Program-made: the position numbers and the translations under genes
Source: a virus
Taxonomy: Duplodnaviria; Heunggongvirae; Uroviricota; Caudoviricetes
Strand: one strand, 5' to 3'
Length of the DNA stretch: 7,397 bases
IMG/VR virus record: IMGVR_UViG_2531839585_000005
Span: 1-7,397 of that record
The notes under the pieces: model-generated
What the model saw: the letters and a program-made list of their open reading frames with translations, nothing else
Told to the model about the DNA's origin: nothing
Database searches by the model: none
In this document: piece by piece, positions 1-7,179 of the stretch
Layout: every line of letters begins with the position of its first letter
Position numbering within the stretch: the stretch's first letter is position 1

Positions 1-151
1 CTGGATGACATCCGGGCGGGACGCATTGAGCGCGCCATTTCACGCTGTCGCAATATCTGGGCGTCCCTGCCGGGTGCCGGTTACGGTCAGCGTGAGCATT
101 CACTGGAAAAACTGGTCACCGTCTGGCGTACCGCGGGGCGTACCGGCTTAA
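1..151 (+). CDS. K: Phage endolysin, C-terminal part (lambda R / P2 K-type lysozyme); 5' end lies outside the window, 3' end uncertain
   Basis: Frame +1 from position 1 reads ...DDIRAGRIERAISRCRNIWASLPGAGYGQREHSLEKLVTVWRTAG..., matching the conserved C-terminal motif of lambda R-type endolysins (NIWASLPGAGYGQ.EH). Frame +1 has no stop until 229-231 and runs into the lysA ATG at 166. TAA codons sit in frame +2 at 149-151 and 158-160, so a 1-bp indel near 133-140 has probably displaced the true stop. Not in the ORF track because the start is outside the window. Confidence 0.65.
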   Translation, partial: WMTSGRDALSAPFHAVAISGRPCRVPVTVSVSIHWKNWSPSGVPRGVPA

Positions 152-165
152 ACGGAGTAAACACC

Positions 166-589
166 ATGAAGAAATTATCCCTTTCACTGATGCTGAACGT
201 GTCGCTGGCGCTGTGCTGGCACTGTCCCTGATTTACCCGCAGAGCGTGGCCGTCAGTTTTGTCGCCACCTGGGCGATTCTGGGACGGTTATCTGTGTGGT
301 TGCCGGTGGTGTCGGCGTGTATGCCACGGAGTATGTACTTGAACGCTACGGGCGGGAGCTGCCACCGGAATCGCTGGCCGTGAAGATTGTCACGTCGCTG
401 TTTTTGCAGCCGGTGCCGTGGCGCAGGCGGTCAGTGGCTCTGGTAGTGATGGTGGCGACGTTTATCTCGCTGGTCGCTGCCGGGTGGATTTTTACCGCGC
501 TGATTTATCTCGTGGCATCGGTGTTCTTCCGGCTGATACGTACGGCCTGCTGTCAGCGTTTTGAGGGGCGGGAACCATGTCAAAGCTGA
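166..589 (+). pseudogene. lysA: lysA-like lysis-timing membrane protein, frame-disrupted as sequenced (needs all three + frames)
   Basis: ATG at 166 sits 7-8 nt downstream of GGAG and opens MKKLSLSLMLNVSLAL in frame +1, which stops at 229-231. The continuation ...VLALSLIYPQSVAVSFVATWAILG is in frame +3 (about 213-283). The remainder, VICVVAGGVGVYATEYVLERYGRELPPESLAVKIVTSLFLQPVPWRRRSVALVVMVATFISLVAAGWIFTALIYLVASVFF..., is frame +2 and corresponds to track ORF 296-589. Hydrophobic segments fit a small membrane protein. The stop overlaps the lysB start. Position after the endolysin matches the P2 order K-lysA-lysB-lysC. Confidence 0.6.
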
Positions 590-1020
590 TGATTGTGCTG
601 GTTGTGTTGTTATCACTGGCGGTGGCCGGTCTGTTTCTGGTGAAACACAAAAATGCCAGCCTGCGCGCCTCGCTGGACAGGGCGAACAATGTCGCCAGCG
701 GGCAGCAGACGACCATCACCATGCTGAAAAATCAGCTTCATGTTGCCCTCACCAGGGCAGACAAAAACGAGATGGCGCAGGTGGCACTGCGTCAGGAACT
801 GGAGAACGCCGCGAAGCGTGAAGCACAGCGCGAGAAAACCATCACGAGGTTACTTAATGAAAACGAGGATTTCCGCCGCTGGTATGGCGCTGACCTGCCT
901 GATGCTGTGCGCCGGTTGCACCAGCGCCCCGCCTGCACCGACGCCAGTGATTGTCCACAACGCCTGCCCGAAAGTGAGTCTTTGCCCGATGCCGGGCAGC
1001 GACCCAGAGACGAACGGTGA
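577..1020 (+). CDS. lysB: LysB, Rz-like inner-membrane spanin (i-spanin)
   Basis: Intact 147-codon ORF. N-terminal MSKLMIVLVVLLSLAVAGLFLV is a single type-II membrane anchor, followed by a charged, helix-prone periplasmic domain (EMAQVALRQELENAAKREAQREK). GAGG lies upstream of the ATG. Sits in the P2 lysis cassette position and carries an embedded out-of-frame lipoprotein gene. Confidence 0.8.
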   Translation: MSKLMIVLVVLLSLAVAGLFLVKHKNASLRASLDRANNVASGQQTTITMLKNQLHVALTRADKNEMAQVALRQELENAAKREAQREKTITRLLNENEDFRRWYGADLPDAVRRLHQRPACTDASDCPQRLPESESLPDAGQRPRDER

Positions 1021-1147: not shown

Positions 1148-1571
1148 TGCCGTCACGGTGCTGAAAACACCGAATGCTGCGGATATTCGTGGATACGGGA
1201 GTATTGCCTCCACGCTGGCGGCGTCGTTGTCATTCGAAAAGCGTTACACGCTCAATGTCATTGTGACCGACTTTACCGGTGATTTTGACCTGCTCATCGT
1301 GCCGGTGCTGGCGTGGCTGCGGGTAAATCAGCCCGACATCATGACCACCGACGCAGGTCAGAAAAAGGGCTTCACGTTTTATGCAGACATCAACAATGAC
1401 AGCAGCTTTGATATCAGCATCAGCCTGATGCTGACCGAGCGAACGCTGGTCAGTGAGGTGGACGGCGCGCTGCATGTGAAGAATATCCCGGAACCTCCGC
1501 CGCCGGAGCCGGTCACCCGCCCGATGGAGCTGTATATCAATGGCGAACTCGTGAGTAAGTGGGATGAATGA
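1110..1571 (+). CDS. R: Tail completion protein R
   Basis: Intact 153-codon ORF MLKPDSLRRALTDAVTVLK...FEKRYTLNVIVTDFTGDFDLLIVPVLAWL...PEPPPPEPVTRPMELYINGELVSKWDE, recognised as P2 gpR-family. Overlaps the lysC 3' end. Its stop is fused to the S start (ATGAATGA). Confidence 0.85.
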   Translation: MLKPDSLRRALTDAVTVLKTPNAADIRGYGSIASTLAASLSFEKRYTLNVIVTDFTGDFDLLIVPVLAWLRVNQPDIMTTDAGQKKGFTFYADINNDSSFDISISLMLTERTLVSEVDGALHVKNIPEPPPPEPVTRPMELYINGELVSKWDE

Positions 1572-2082: not shown

Positions 2083-2710
2083 ATGAACACTCTCGCAAAT
2101 ATCCAGGAACTCGCGCGCGCACTGCGCAACATGATCCGCACCGGCCTTGTCGTCGAAACCAACCTTAAAGCCGGTCGCTGCCGTGTGCAGACCGGCGGCA
2201 TGTGCACCGACTGGCTTCAGTGGCTGACTCGTGCCGGGCGTTCGCGCACTGGTGGGCACCTTCCGTGGGGGACAGGTGCTGATTCTGGCCGTGGGCGGTG
2301 AACTCGACACGGCGTTCGTTCTGCCGGGGATTTATTCCGGTGATAACCCCGCGCCGTCTGCGTCGGCGGATGCCCTGCATATCCGTTTCCCTGACGGGGC
2401 GGTGATTGAGTATGAACCCGAAACCAGCGCACTCACGGTAAGCGGAATTAAAACGGCCAGCGTGACGGCTTCTGATTCTGTTACTGCCACGGTGCCGGTG
2501 GTCACGGTGAAAGCATCAACCCGCGTACCCTGGACACACCGGAGGTGGTTGCACCAACAGGCTGATTACGGCACGCTGGAAGTGCAGAAGGGCGGGACGA
2601 TGCGCGGCAACATTGAACACACCGGCGGTGAACTCTCATCAAACGGTAAGGTACTGCATACCCATAAACACCCCGGCGACAGCGGCGGCACAACCGGGAG
2701 CCCTCTATGA
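2083..2710 (+). pseudogene. V: Baseplate spike / central hub protein V, frame-disrupted as sequenced
   Basis: Frame +1 ORF 2083-2301 gives MNTLANIQELARALRNMIRTGLVVETNLKAGRCRVQTGGMCTDWLQWLTRAGRSRT..., the gpV N-terminus. The continuation WWAPSVG is in frame +3, then QVLILAVGGELDTAFVLPGIYSGDNPAPSASADALHIRFPDGAVIEYEPETSALTVSGIKTASVTASDSVTATVPVVTVKASTRV is in frame +2 (track ORF 2231-2710). A second cluster at about 2525-2575 passes through frames +1 (TLDTPEVV) and +3 (CTNRLIT) before returning to +2 (GTLEVQKGGTMRGNIEHTGGELSSNGKVLHTHKHPGDSGGTTGSPL). The stop overlaps the W start (ATGA). Confidence 0.8.
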
Positions 2711-3058: not shown

Positions 3059-3949
3059 ATGCCGATTATCGACCTGAACCAGCTACCTGCACCGGATGTG
3101 GTCGAGGAGCTGGACTTTGAAACCATTCTTGCTGAACGCAAGGCGACACTGATTTCTCTTTACCCGGAAGACCAGCAGGAGGCGGTCGCCCGTACCCTGA
3201 CGCTGGAATCTGAGCCTCTCGCCAAACTGCTGGAGGAAAATGCTTATCGTGAGCTTATCTGGCGTCAGCGTGTGAATGAGGCCGCACGGGCGGTGATGCT
3301 GGCCTGTGCCGCCGGTAATGACCTTGATGTGATTGGTGCCAATTACAACACCACGCGCCTGACTATCACCCCGGCAGATGATTCGACCATTCCGCCGACA
3401 CCGGCAGTGATGGAATCTGACACCGATTATCGTCTGCGTATTCAGCAGGCGTTTGAGGCTTAAGCGTCGCCGGGTCGGTGGGGCTATCAGTATCATGGTC
3501 GCAGTGCCGACGGGCGTGTCGCGGATATTCTGTACCAGTCCGTCTCCGGCCTGCGTCACCATCTCGTGCTGTCACGTGAAAATAACGGTGTGCATCCGAA
3601 GACTGCTGGCGGGTGCGTAACGCCCTTAATGGCGAGGACGTCAGGCCGGTGGCCGACCGCGTGACCGTGCAGTCTGCCGCCATGTTGAATACCAGATAAA
3701 CGCCACGCTTTACCTTTACCCTGGTCCCGAAAGGAACCCATCCGCGCGCCGCCGTGAAAAAACTGGAAGCTAATCACGGCACAGCACCGGCTGGGGCGGA
3801 CATCCGTCTGTCTGCCATTTATGCCGCTTTGCATGTGGAAGGGTGCAGCGTGTCGAACTGGCTGCACCCTGGCCGACATCGTGCTCAACAGTACGCAGGC
3901 GTCTTTCTGTACCGAATACCGCGTCGTGACCGGAGGCTCGGATGAGTGA
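3059..3949 (+). pseudogene. J: Baseplate protein J, intact for the first ~134 codons, then heavily frame-disrupted
   Basis: Frame +2 ORF 3059-3463 gives MPIIDLNQLPAPDVVEELDFETILAERKATLISLYPEDQQEAVARTLTLESEPLAKLLEENAYRELIWRQRVNEAARAVMLACAAGNDLDVIGANYNTTRLTITPADDSTIPPTPAVMESDTDYRLRIQQAFE and then hits TAA. Downstream, recognisable gpJ segments appear piecemeal across all three + frames: YQYHGRSADGRVADI, TSPSPACVTIS, VLSRENNGV, VRNALNGEDVRPVADRVTVQSAA, VEYQINATLYLYPGPE, VKKLEA, ITAQHRLGR, DIRLSAIYAALHVEG, LADIVLNSTQASFCTEYRVVTGGSDE. The final segment is in frame with a TGA at 3947-3949 that overlaps the I start. Full-length gpJ is about 300 aa as I recall. Confidence 0.8.
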
Positions 3950-4482: not shown

Positions 4483-6648
4483 ATGAGCACAAAATTCAGA
4501 ACCGTTATCACCACTGCCGGTGCAGCAAAGCTGGCAGCGGCAACCGCGCCGGGAGGGCGGAAGGTCAACATTACCACGATGGCCGTCGGGGATGGCGGTG
4601 GTAAATTGCCTGTCCCGGATGCCGGACAGACCGGGCTTATCCACGAAGTCTGGCGACATGCGCTGAACAAAATCAGCCAGGACAAACGAAACAGTAATTA
4701 TATTATCGCAGAGCTGGTTATTCCGCCGGAGGTGGGCGGTTTCTGGATGCGTGAACTTGGCCTGTACGATGATGCGGGAACTAATTGCCGTGGCGAACAT
4801 GGCCGAAAGTTATAAGCCAGCCTTGCCGAAGGCTCAGGGCGTTCGCAGACCTGCGCATGGTCATCATCGTCAGCAGTGTGGCCTCAGTGGGCTGACCATT
4901 GACACCACAACGGTGATGGCACGCAGGATTACGTTGATGACAAAATTGCAGACATGAACAGTCACGACGTCACCCGACGCCTCGCTGACCGCAAAAGGTT
5001 TTACTCAGTTAAGCATGCGACCAACAGCACGTCTGAAACACTGGCCGCAACGCCGAAAGCGGTAAAGGCCGCGTATGACTTGCTAACGGGAAATAACGCC
5101 AGGAGCCACCAAGCGCGAAAAGGCCTTGTCCAGCTCAGTAGGCCACCAACAGCGATTCTGAAACGCTTGCGGCAACGCCAAAGGCGGTTAAGACAGCGTA
5201 TGACCTTGCTAACGGGAAATACACTGCACAGGAGCCACCACGCGCGAAAGGTCTTGTCAGCTCAGTAGCGCCACCAACAGGATTCTGAAACGCTGGCTGC
5301 AACATCAAAAGCGGTGAAGTCTGCCTATGACAATGCTGAAAAACGTCTTCAGAAAGATCAGAACGGTGCGGATATTCCGGGAAAGGATACCTTCACGAAA
5401 AATATCGGTGCCTGTCGTGCTTATAGCGGCGCTTTGAGCACTGAAGCCGGAAACTGGACAACCGCTCAGTTTATTGAATGGCTGGATTCCCGTGGTGCAT
5501 TTAATCATCCGTACTGGATGTGCAAAGGCTCCTGGTCATATGCAAATAACAAAATCATTACGGATACCGGATGTGGTGATATCCACCTGGCTGGTTGTGT
5601 CGTCGAGGTCATGGGAACTAAATCTGCAATCACTATTCGAGTGACCACGCCGACAACATCAAGTGGTGGCGGTACAACCAGCGCGCAATTCACTTACATA
5701 AATCATGGGGACGGCTACTCCCCCGGCTGGCGTCGTGACTGGAATCGTCAGGGCGACGCAATGACCGGAACGATTAATCAGGATGGCGGAAGCCAGAATG
5801 CCTATATGTCTACGGCCTTATGTTCAGGCACCAGAGGCGGCAAAAAATATCTCAGAAAGTTTCGTGGTGGAGAAGGAGACACTATCTGGCATGAAACAGT
5901 ACAGGGCGGGGTAATTCGCTGGGCGACAGGAAACTATGACGCTCAGGAAGAATTATCACTCAGCTCCGCTTATGGTCTCCGTTCAAGAGGTGAGATTACA
6001 TCACTCAGTGCTAATGGTCTGCGCATTGCTTATGGCAATTATGGATTCTTTATCAGGAATGATGGCGGCAGCACATATTTAATGCTGACGGCCTCTGGCG
6101 ATAAATTAGGCACATAGAACAATTTAAGACCGCTGACTATAAATAACGCCAAGGGCGCAGTATCAATGGGGCATGGCCTGAATGTTACTGGTGATATTGT
6201 CTCAAGTACCAAAGTACGTGCCGGTAGCGGGAAAAAATTCACGGTCAGCAGCAGTAATACATCCACGAAGGAAGCCGCATTCAATTTGTGGGGAAACTCA
6301 AGTCGTCCGGTGGTGGCTGAATTAGGTGATGATGCAGGCTGGCATTTTTACAGTCAGAGAAATACAGATAACAGCATCACGTTTGCTGTTAACGGTCAGG
6401 TATCACCATCTAACTATAGTAATTTTGATTCACGCTATGTCCGGGATATCCGGCTTGGTGGTGCTGCCACATACAAACCTGCGAACAATGGCATGACATG
6501 GACACATCAGGCACCGTCCGGGTGTGTATATTCCGGCATTATTGTTCAGGATACCGGCTCAAACTCTGCCGATAACATTGGTGGCATATATTACAGACCG
6601 GTGCAGAAATACATTAACGGGACTTGGTATAACGTGGCGCAGGTATAA
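4483..6648 (+). pseudogene. H: Tail fibre protein H (mosaic). 5' third is frame-disrupted, one in-frame TAG at 6115-6117, otherwise continuous
   Basis: ATG at 4483 preceded by GAGG. Frame +1 reads MSTKFRTVITTAGAAKLAAATAPGGRKVNITTMAVGDGGGKLPVPDAGQTGLIHEVWRHALNKISQDKRNSNYIIAELVIPPEVGGFWMRELGLYDDAGT, the gpH N-terminus. From about 4778 the continuation (LIAVANMAESYKPAL, LAEGSGR, RMVIIVSSVASV, LTIDTTTVMA, then the ATNSTSETLAATPKAVK repeats) is scattered over three frames up to about 5280. From 5281 to 6648 a single frame +1 runs cleanly apart from the TAG at 6115-6117 (track ORFs 5314-6117 and 6166-6648). The C-terminus ...NFDSRYVRDIRLG...RPVQKYINGTWYNVAQV is the conserved P2-H-type tail-fibre terminus. 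Confidence 0.85.
5006..5337 (+). repeat. Three imperfect direct tandem repeats of ~126 bp inside H, encoding a repeated tail-fibre motif
   Basis: Copy 1 about 5006-5130, copy 2 about 5131-5258, copy 3 (partial, diverging) about 5259-5337. Each encodes a variant of QLSSATNS(T/D)SETLAAT(P/S)KAVK(A/T/S)AYDLANGKYTAQEATTARKGLV. The copies differ by substitutions and 1-bp indels. Confidence 0.7.
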
Positions 6649-6651
6649 TTT

Positions 6652-7179
6652 ATGCAGCATTTGATAAATATAACGGCAGGTAATCCAAAAACGGTTGAAC
6701 AATATCAATTGACAAAGGACTTTGATGTTGTCTGGTTTTTTTCAGAAGATGGTAAGAACTGGTACGAAGAACAAAAGTATTTTGCTGATGACACGATAAA
6801 AATAGCGTACGACAAAGATAATATCATCCGCTATGTGGAAAAGGATGTGACAGCTATCAGACCGGATGGATTAAGTGTGGTTGAAGTGGCGGATATTACT
6901 GCTAACCGACGGGCGGATATTTCAGGGGGCTGGATGTTTAAGGACGGCAAAGTGATTAAACGCATTTATACGGCAGATGAATTGCGGCGGCAGGCAGAAA
7001 TTCGGAAAGTCAGACTTCTTGCAGATGCTGAATCCGTGATTTTGCCGCTGGAGCGCGCTGTCAGGCTGAACATGGCAACAGATGAGGAGCGTAGCCGACT
7101 GGAAGCATGGGAGCGTTACAGCGTTCTGGTCAGTCGTGTGGATCCTGCAAATCCTGAATGGCCGGAAATGCCGCAATAA
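6652..7179 (+). CDS. G: Tail fibre assembly protein G (Tfa-type chaperone)
   Basis: Intact 175-codon ORF starting 3 nt after the H stop: [44 protein letters not shown]...[42 protein letters not shown]. The C-terminal half is recognised as the P2 gpG/Tfa family. Position immediately 3' of the tail-fibre gene fits. Confidence 0.9.

What the first reader, a model, noticed from the sequence alone, without database searches (positions are those of the whole stretch)
2230..2580. Baseplate spike gene V is readable only by hopping between all three forward frames
The gpV protein sequence is fully present but split. The N-terminus is in frame +1, a short piece in +3, the bulk in +2, and a second cluster near 2525-2575 passes through +1 and +3 before returning to +2. 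Each transition is consistent with a single-base deletion, several in short homopolymers (for example GGGGGA-CAGG near 2275). The flanking genes S and W are intact. A phage with this V gene as written could not build a baseplate hub.
Basis: partly seen in the sequence, partly recalled or inferred. Interest (0 to 1): 0.6.

Follow-up and report, generated by a model that had tools for sequence, protein, structure and literature searches.

The report
Assembly artefact, not a broken gene
The P2-type phage spike gene V really is split across three reading frames in this database record, but the missing bases are dropouts made when a short-read assembler merged near-identical prophage copies, so this is a data-quality artefact and not biology.

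Summary
V (2083-2710) follows frames +1, +3, +2, +1, +3, +2 because six events remove 8 bases. The biological reading does not hold.

The window is the whole contig APZI01000619.1 of the draft genome of ETEC isolate E. coli p0305293.13. The project behind this isolate series used Illumina at over 200x coverage and Celera Assembler.

Against its closest relative the contig has 40 deletion events and no insertions. They also break K, lysA, R, J and H. They lie in blocks that contain no substitutions and alternate with substitution-only blocks of similar site spacing.

The lost bases are not in homopolymers. They sit on third codon positions (17 of 24) and on columns that vary among P2-type phages (32 of 46, against 8.5% background; P=1.5e-24). 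No other genome or phage searched shares them.

The assembly of sibling isolate p0305293.7 carries a different subset. It drops bases exactly where this contig shows SNPs, and it calls the other allele elsewhere.

The best explanation is consensus dropout at sites where co-assembled prophage copies differ. Restoring the bases gives an intact 211-residue gpV. Interest is low.

The parts
2083..2710 (+). P2-type baseplate spike gene V, fragmented in this record. It is 628 nt here against 636 nt in relatives.
   Evidence: The frame path is. Repaired, the protein carries Pfam PF04717 and PF18715 and matches 3QR8 over residues 1-211. Gene callers split it into 72-aa and 159-aa products.
2228..2272 (+). 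First dropout block in V: ACA lost after 2228, A lost after 2249, G lost after 2272.
   Evidence: All three ACA columns and the G column are polymorphic among relatives. The block is a pure subsequence of L001, L002 and L010.
2526..2569 (+). Second dropout block in V: C lost after 2526, T after 2548, T after 2568.
   Evidence: Two of the three columns are T/C polymorphic among relatives. The same three losses are inferred in the sibling assembly p0305293.7.
2305..2505 (+). Called-SNP block inside V. Eight sites (2305, 2341, 2366, 2368, 2410, 2419, 2428, 2505) differ from copy A. In the sibling assembly five of them (2366, 2368, 2410, 2419, 2428) are dropped and two (2341, 2505) carry allele A. 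Site 2305 is not resolved by the reconstruction.
134..282 (+). Dropout block in the end of K and in lysA (TG, A, T lost).
1167..1194 (+). Dropout block in R. Six bases are lost, so the net change is in frame. The ORF stays open at 153 aa against 155 aa, with a short scrambled stretch.
3455..3868 (+). Dropout block in J: 15 events, 18 bases lost, 0 mismatches to copy A.
4781..5280 (+). Dropout block in H: 14 events. It includes a missing 133-nt unit of the tail-fibre tandem repeat.
6115..6117 (+). In-frame TAG that splits H. It looks like a chimera of two alleles, TAT in copy A and TGG in a B-like phage.
   Evidence: No database sequence searched is more than 94.1% identical to this stretch.

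Best explanation
The window is a short-read draft contig in which reads from two or more near-identical P2-type templates were merged into one consensus. The templates are most likely two co-resident prophages, plus the tail-fibre tandem repeat units. Where the templates differ, the consensus step did one of two things. It called one allele, which gives the substitution blocks and a chimeric sequence. Or it emitted no base at all, which gives the deletion blocks. Each dropped base shifts the frame, so V, J, H, lysA and K appear frameshifted and R carries a short scrambled stretch.

The real V gene or genes in the strain are almost certainly intact.

Shown here: the lesions sit at inter-copy polymorphic sites, they replace SNPs block by block, and they differ between sibling assemblies.

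Inferred, not shown:
- the exact software step, such as gap-majority columns in the Celera Assembler multi-alignment or removal of ambiguous calls;
- the link from this particular assembly to the published methods.
For: 1. Source. The window is the complete 7,397-bp contig APZI01000619.1 of GCA_000356865.2, E. coli p0305293.13. The ICDDR,B ETEC multi-colony project used Illumina HiSeq2000 at over 200x coverage and Celera Assembler, giving 36-687 contigs per genome. Random read error cannot survive at that depth.
2. There are 40 deletion events and 0 insertions against the closest prophage.
3. Of 30 single-base losses, 23 are outside homopolymers.
4. Of 24 unambiguous single losses, 17 fall on third codon positions (P=2e-4).
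5. Of 46 lost columns, 32 are polymorphic among only six relatives, against 8.5% of all columns (P=1.5e-24).
6. The 166 variant events form only 12 runs, against an expected 62 +/- 4.7. Deletion blocks contain no substitutions. Their site spacing (21-38 nt in five of six blocks) is similar to that of most SNP blocks.
7. Every deletion block is a pure subsequence of copy A. The V blocks are equally pure subsequences of relatives that differ from A only at the dropped sites.
8. The sibling isolate's V fragment ENH53887.1 is reproduced exactly by editing only the sites that vary between the window and A. It has dropouts at 2366, 2368, 2410, 2419 and 2428, where the window calls allele B. It has allele A at 2341 and 2505. 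It shares the dropouts at 2526, 2548 and 2568. Both alleles are therefore present in the read sets from this patient's isolates.
9. The V junction pattern has no exact match in the viral, genome or metagenome collections. No V match in 1,584 complete E. coli records or 91 phage records is gap-free.
10. The closest complete ETEC genomes hold 2-3 places matching this tail-fibre region.
11. In the called part of H, the window matches allele A at 26 and allele B at 35 of the 61 A/B-variable sites, and never neither. It alternates almost site by site at 6104-6162 and creates a TAG there.
Against: No reads were available, so neither the two templates nor their coverage ratio was seen directly.

No single database sequence was found that equals allele B over the whole contig.

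Thirteen or fourteen of the lost columns are invariant among the few relatives sampled.

I found no paper that documents this exact behaviour of Celera Assembler.

The methods paper does not name P0305293 in its main text and its Table S1 is not held. The link rests on the naming scheme, the sequencing centre and a second paper that lists P0305293.1 as a Bangladesh 2011 isolate.

Three V dropouts are shared by the two sibling assemblies. On its own, that could also be read as real deletions.
Confidence: 0.93

Rival explanations
1. Genuine pseudogenisation. The prophage is a decaying cryptic element whose late genes have accumulated real single-base deletions.
For: The frameshifts are present in the deposited sequence. 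Three of them are shared with a sibling isolate's assembly. Bacterial pseudogene decay is deletion-biased (general knowledge).
Against: The ratio of deletions to insertions is 40 to 0. There are zero substitutions inside the deletion blocks, for example 18 bases lost and 0 mismatches over 446 nt of J. Losses are targeted to wobble and polymorphic sites, which mutation cannot know about. Deletion blocks and SNP blocks alternate in 12 runs. The sibling has a different set of losses, placed exactly at this contig's SNP sites, within one patient's sample. No other genome shares any of it.
Confidence: 0.03
2. Random read-level sequencing error in a low-coverage or homopolymer-prone technology, such as 454, Ion Torrent, nanopore or Sanger read tails.
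For: Errors are clustered and deletion-only. The draft has more than 600 contigs.
Against: The project used Illumina at over 200x coverage. Losses avoid homopolymers. Random error would not prefer third codon positions or polymorphic columns. It would not recur at the same three sites in a second assembly.
Confidence: 0.02
3. The same artefact, but the two templates come from a mixed culture or cross-contamination of two strains that each carry one P2-type prophage, rather than two prophages in one genome.
For: The contig number is unusually high, at least 619, near the top of the project's range of 36-687. Both alleles are visible across sibling assemblies.
Against: Two sibling assemblies show the same pair of alleles. 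The closest complete ETEC genomes already carry 2-3 copies of this region. A mixture would have to recur in separately picked colonies. This rival does not change the verdict on V.
Confidence: 0.12
4. Programmed ribosomal frameshifting or another recoding mechanism reads V through the shifts.
For: None beyond the fact that all pieces of the protein are present.
Against: Five shifts would be needed in one 628-nt gene. No V match in 1,584 E. coli records or 91 phage records aligns without the 8-base gap difference, and every relative checked is annotated with an intact V gene. The same lesions occur in five other genes.
Confidence: 0.001

Closest known systems
Bacteriophage P2 gpV, the baseplate central spike (PDB 3QR8; Pfam PF04717 Phage_base_V plus PF18715 Phage_spike)
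   Same: The repaired product is 211 aa and colinear with 3QR8 over residues 1-211 (E=6e-134). It has both Pfam domains. The gene order around it is R-S-V-W-J-I-H-G.
   Different: As deposited, the ORF is broken into pieces by 8 missing bases. This is a property of the record, not of the protein family.
Consensus and collapse errors of short-read draft assemblies at near-identical repeats (collapsed repeats, chimeric consensus)
   Same: Errors are confined to sites where the copies differ. The called alleles are chimeric. The contig is bounded by repeat sequence. Assemblies of sibling isolates give different outcomes. Collapsed near-identical repeats are a recognised feature of Celera Assembler output (the consensus module is that of Denisov et al. 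2008, cited there).
   Different: The usual textbook symptom is a wrong or mixed allele. Here many variant columns are dropped altogether, which gives deletion-only frameshifts. I found no paper that describes this specific signature.
Cryptic or defective P2-like prophages of E. coli with real pseudogenes
   Same: It is a P2-type late region in an E. coli chromosome with unreadable tail genes.
   Different: Real decay gives mixed substitutions, insertions, deletions and large truncations that are shared by related strains. None of that is seen here.

Membership tests
P2 gpV baseplate spike | N-terminal OB-fold domain (PF04717) followed by a C-terminal spike trimer domain (PF18715) | tested here: met
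   The repaired protein scores 72.9 bits on PF04717 and 98.4 bits on PF18715, both above the curated cut-offs. The deposited 72-aa fragment is just below cut-off (23.5 against 23.8). The 159-aa fragment keeps only half of PF18715.
P2 gpV baseplate spike | Full-length colinearity with the solved P2 gpV | tested here: met
   3QR8 chain A, residues 1-211 against 1-211, E=6e-134.
P2 gpV baseplate spike | Position between S and W in the P2 late operon | tested here: met
   Annotated relatives have the order S-V-W-J-I-H-G at the homologous coordinates.
P2 gpV baseplate spike | A single uninterrupted reading frame | tested here: not met
   The deposited sequence has six frame segments. This is attributed to the assembly, not to the gene.
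Genuine pseudogene | Lesions reproducible in independent sequences of the same lineage | tested here: not met
   The sibling assembly shares 3 of this contig's V lesions. It has 5 others at this contig's SNP sites and calls allele A at two sites where this contig calls B. No other genome shares any of them.
Genuine pseudogene | A mutation spectrum blind to codon position and to population polymorphism, with substitutions accompanying indels | tested here: not met
   17 of 24 losses are at third codon positions. 32 of 46 lost columns are polymorphic. There are 0 substitutions within the deletion blocks.
Collapsed-repeat consensus artefact | Errors coincide with sites that differ between the merged copies | tested here: met
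Collapsed-repeat consensus artefact | More than one copy of the sequence in the sequenced template | tested here: inconclusive
   The evidence is indirect. Both alleles appear across the two sibling assemblies. The closest complete ETEC genomes have 2-3 places for this region. H contains a 127-nt tandem repeat.
Collapsed-repeat consensus artefact | Read pileups show two alleles at the lost positions and no reads carrying the deletion | not testable with these tools
   No read data were available.
Programmed frameshift site | A conserved slippery site, with the shift conserved in relatives | tested here: not met
   No V match among complete E. coli genomes or phages carries the shifts.

The most novel reading that the evidence does not exclude
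The single-base losses are real. They would be produced by a recombination-associated process between co-resident, roughly 3%-diverged P2-type prophages that deletes the mismatched base in heteroduplex DNA. The process would be active enough to make colonies from a single stool sample differ.
Probability: 0.01. Interest if true: 0.8.

Novelty: not a real feature. Interest (0 to 1): 0.05.

Why it matters
There is no biological significance. The strain's V gene is most probably intact and the prophage may well be functional.

The practical significance is for data quality:
- Artefactual fragments from this contig have entered protein databases as 'phage baseplate assembly protein V' (END27415.1, WP_024254718.1, WP_432762450.1).
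- Pseudogene or 'defective prophage' counts taken from this family of Celera-assembled Illumina drafts will be inflated.
- Even the undamaged-looking genes on the contig may be chimeric. G is unique among 153 billion gene positions, and H contains a chimeric TAG codon.

The signature found here is a cheap, read-free diagnostic for this class of artefact: deletion-only lesions, at wobble and polymorphic sites, in blocks that replace SNPs.

Tried and rejected
- **Homopolymer or indel-prone platform error.** Rejected. Losses avoid homopolymers and the project used deep Illumina sequencing.
- **Independent support for the deletions.** An exact-match search with a 49-nt pattern spanning two V junctions found nothing in the viral, GTDB-genome or metagenome collections.
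- **Accession searches in the literature.** APZI and GCA_000356865 gave nothing relevant.
- **Direct look-up of the sibling's contig through P0003.** I decoded the sibling's DNA from its protein instead.
- **Reaching more siblings.** A protein search with the out-of-frame signature peptide returned only unrelated fragments. One is a differently frameshifted V from another draft, GCA_005670885.1. It is not informative for this strain.
- **Locating a second, B-type prophage in the closest complete ETEC genomes.** I queried a SNP-dense block. B-like alleles exist in many genomes at 99.3%, but not in those ETEC strains and never at 100%. No single relative equals allele B along the whole contig.
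- **Supplementary Table S1 of the methods paper.** It is not held.
- **A citation for the exact Celera consensus behaviour.** None was found.

Full report
**What the window is**

The 7,397 bases are a P2-type (Peduovirus) late-gene block. The gene order is: end of K (lysozyme), lysA, lysB/lysC, R, S, V, W, J, I, H, G. This order matches annotated relatives.

An exact look-up of the aberrant ORF products shows that the window is the entire contig APZI01000619.1 of NCBI draft assembly GCA_000356865.2. The products are named as coming from Escherichia coli p0305293.13 (END27415.1).

[quoted passage not shown] The paper on the multi-colony ICDDR,B series gives the methods: Illumina HiSeq2000 paired-end sequencing, over 200x coverage, assembly with Celera Assembler, and 36-687 contigs per genome. 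That paper's main text does not name P0305293 and its Table S1 is not held. The link from this assembly to those methods is therefore an inference from the naming scheme, the project and the dates.

**Checking the observation**

Walking the alignment to an intact V gene gives these segments:
- frame +1 for 2083-2249
- frame +3 for 2250-2272
- frame +2 for 2273-2526
- frame +1 for 2527-2548
- frame +3 for 2549-2568
- frame +2 for 2569-2710

Five 1-nt deletions cause the shifts, after window positions 2249, 2272, 2526, 2548 and 2568. There is also an in-frame 3-nt deletion after 2228.

Restoring the 8 bases gives a 211-aa protein. It carries Pfam Phage_base_V and Phage_spike. It matches the P2 gpV structure 3QR8 over its full length (E=6e-134). 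S and W are undamaged.

Two statements in the finding do not hold:
- The deletions are not in homopolymers. In V, only the TTT case lies in a run.
- V is not singled out. K, lysA, R, J (15 events) and H (14 events) carry the same lesions.

**The pattern of lesions**

Against the closest complete genome (ETEC strain 120899, locus L001), the contig shows 40 deletion events, 0 insertions and about 126 true substitutions. Four properties are incompatible with either mutation or random read error.

1. *Codon position.* Of 24 single losses with an unambiguous position, 17 are third codon positions (P=2e-4).
2. *Polymorphism.* Among only six relatives, 8.5% of alignment columns vary, yet 32 of the 46 lost columns do (P=1.5e-24). 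With seven relatives the count is 33 of 45.
3. *Blocks.* Ordered along the contig, the 166 variant events form 12 runs where about 62 are expected. There are six deletion blocks: 134-282, 1167-1194, 2228-2272, 2526-2568, 3455-3868 and 4781-5280. They alternate with substitution-only blocks. Site spacing is 21-38 nt in five of the six deletion blocks, similar to most substitution blocks.
4. *Pure subsequence.* Every deletion block is a pure subsequence of copy A, with zero mismatches and zero extra bases. One example is 18 bases missing and 0 mismatches over 446 nt of J. The two V blocks are equally pure subsequences of relatives that differ from A only at the dropped sites.

In short, the deletions stand where SNPs should be.

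**The sibling test**

The 90% cluster of the 159-aa V fragment contains a 133-aa 'V family protein' from E. coli p0305293.7, a second colony from the same patient (ENH53887.1). It contains the same out-of-frame peptide, STRVPWTHRRWLHQQADYGTLEVQ. So the three losses at 2526, 2548 and 2568 recur in that assembly.

I allowed only the sites that differ between the window and copy A to take allele A, allele B or a gap. Under that restriction the sibling protein is reproduced exactly:
- gaps at 2366, 2368, 2410, 2419 and 2428, where this contig calls allele B;
- allele A at 2341 and 2505, where this contig also calls B;
- the three shared gaps.

The two assemblies of colonies from one stool sample resolve the same set of variable sites differently, as A, as B, or as nothing. 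Both alleles are therefore present in these read sets, and which outcome appears is a property of the assembly run.

The two patients reported as non-clonal in the paper are P0299917 and P0299438, not P0305293.

**No outside support**

No V match in 1,584 complete E. coli records or 91 phage records aligns without the 8-base gap difference. A 49-nt pattern spanning two V junctions has no exact match in the viral, genome or metagenome collections. The J block behaves the same way against phages: 461 bases align to 479, and nearly all the difference is gaps.

**Mechanism**

The best-supported account is that reads from two or more P2-type templates about 3% apart were merged. The closest complete ETEC genomes have 2-3 places matching this region. 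H also contains a 127-nt tandem repeat, from which a 133-nt unit is missing here.

At columns where the templates differ, the consensus step either voted for one allele or produced no base.

The called part of the contig also looks chimeric:
- In 5300-6458 there are 61 sites where copy A and Yersinia phage P37 (B-like) differ. The window equals A at 26 and B at 35, and never neither. There are only 2 private differences.
- Between 6104 and 6162 the window alternates A/B almost site by site.
- This creates an in-frame TAG at 6115-6117 from TAT (A) and TGG (B).
- Nothing in complete E. coli genomes or phages exceeds 94.1% identity over that stretch.
- The H fragments and even the intact G protein are unique to this contig among 153 billion gene positions.

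The exact software step is inferred and could not be tested. It could be gap-majority columns after mismatches are aligned as paired indels in the Celera multi-alignment. I found no paper documenting it.

**Rivals**

- Genuine prophage decay would need 40 deletions against 0 insertions, no substitutions inside the blocks, knowledge of wobble and polymorphic sites, and different lesions in sibling colonies. I give it about 3%.
- Platform indel error is contradicted by the homopolymer, codon-position and recurrence results and by the coverage. I give it about 2%.
- A mixed culture instead of two prophages is possible, at about 12%, but it leaves the verdict unchanged.
- Programmed frameshifting is excluded by the relatives.

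**Verdict**

It is not a feature of the phage or the bacterium. Novelty: not a real feature. Interest: about 0.05. The residual value is as a warning about this assembly series and as a read-free diagnostic signature. Read mapping or Sanger sequencing of V would settle the question definitively.

Noticed in passing
window 6115-6117 (context 6104-6162): An in-frame TAG splits tail-fibre gene H into ORFs 5314-6117 and 6166-6648. Copy A has TAT and a B-like phage (P37) has TGG. The window takes the A of one allele and the G of the other, and it alternates A/B alleles almost site by site over about 60 nt. This looks like a chimeric consensus codon rather than a nonsense mutation.
   Followed up: yes
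window 6652-7179: The apparently intact tail-fibre assembly protein G (175 aa) occurs on no other contig among 153 billion gene positions, not even in sibling isolates. Undamaged ORFs on this contig may therefore also be chimeric consensus sequences.
   Followed up: partly
window 5020-5331: There is a tandem repeat in H (period 127, 2.5 copies, 83% matches). One 133-nt unit is missing relative to the closest prophage. Relatives have H genes of 1,929-2,619 nt, so the copy number may vary naturally or may have been collapsed by the assembler.
   Followed up: partly
window 1167-1194 (gene R, 1110-1571): R lost 6 bases in two events. The ORF stays open (153 aa against 155 aa) and looks intact to an ORF caller, but about 9 codons between the events are read out of frame.
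   Followed up: partly
database records derived from window 2083-2301 and 2231-2710: The artefactual V fragments carry RefSeq and UniRef identifiers (WP_024254718.1, WP_432762450.1, END27415.1) and are named 'phage baseplate assembly protein V'. The error has propagated into reference protein sets.
   Followed up: no
L008 379-1106 (GCA_005670885.1, SEVL01000003.1): An unrelated E. coli draft assembly also has a P2-type V gene broken into 145-aa and 89-aa pieces, with a different frameshift pattern. That pattern includes a shift at the very end that runs into W. The cause was not examined.
   Followed up: no
window 400-700 (lysA/lysB): In this SNP-dense 'called' block, the window is 99.3% identical to many E. 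coli prophages but 100% identical to none of the 5,426 complete genomes. This is consistent with a near-natural allele carrying a few consensus errors.
   Followed up: partly
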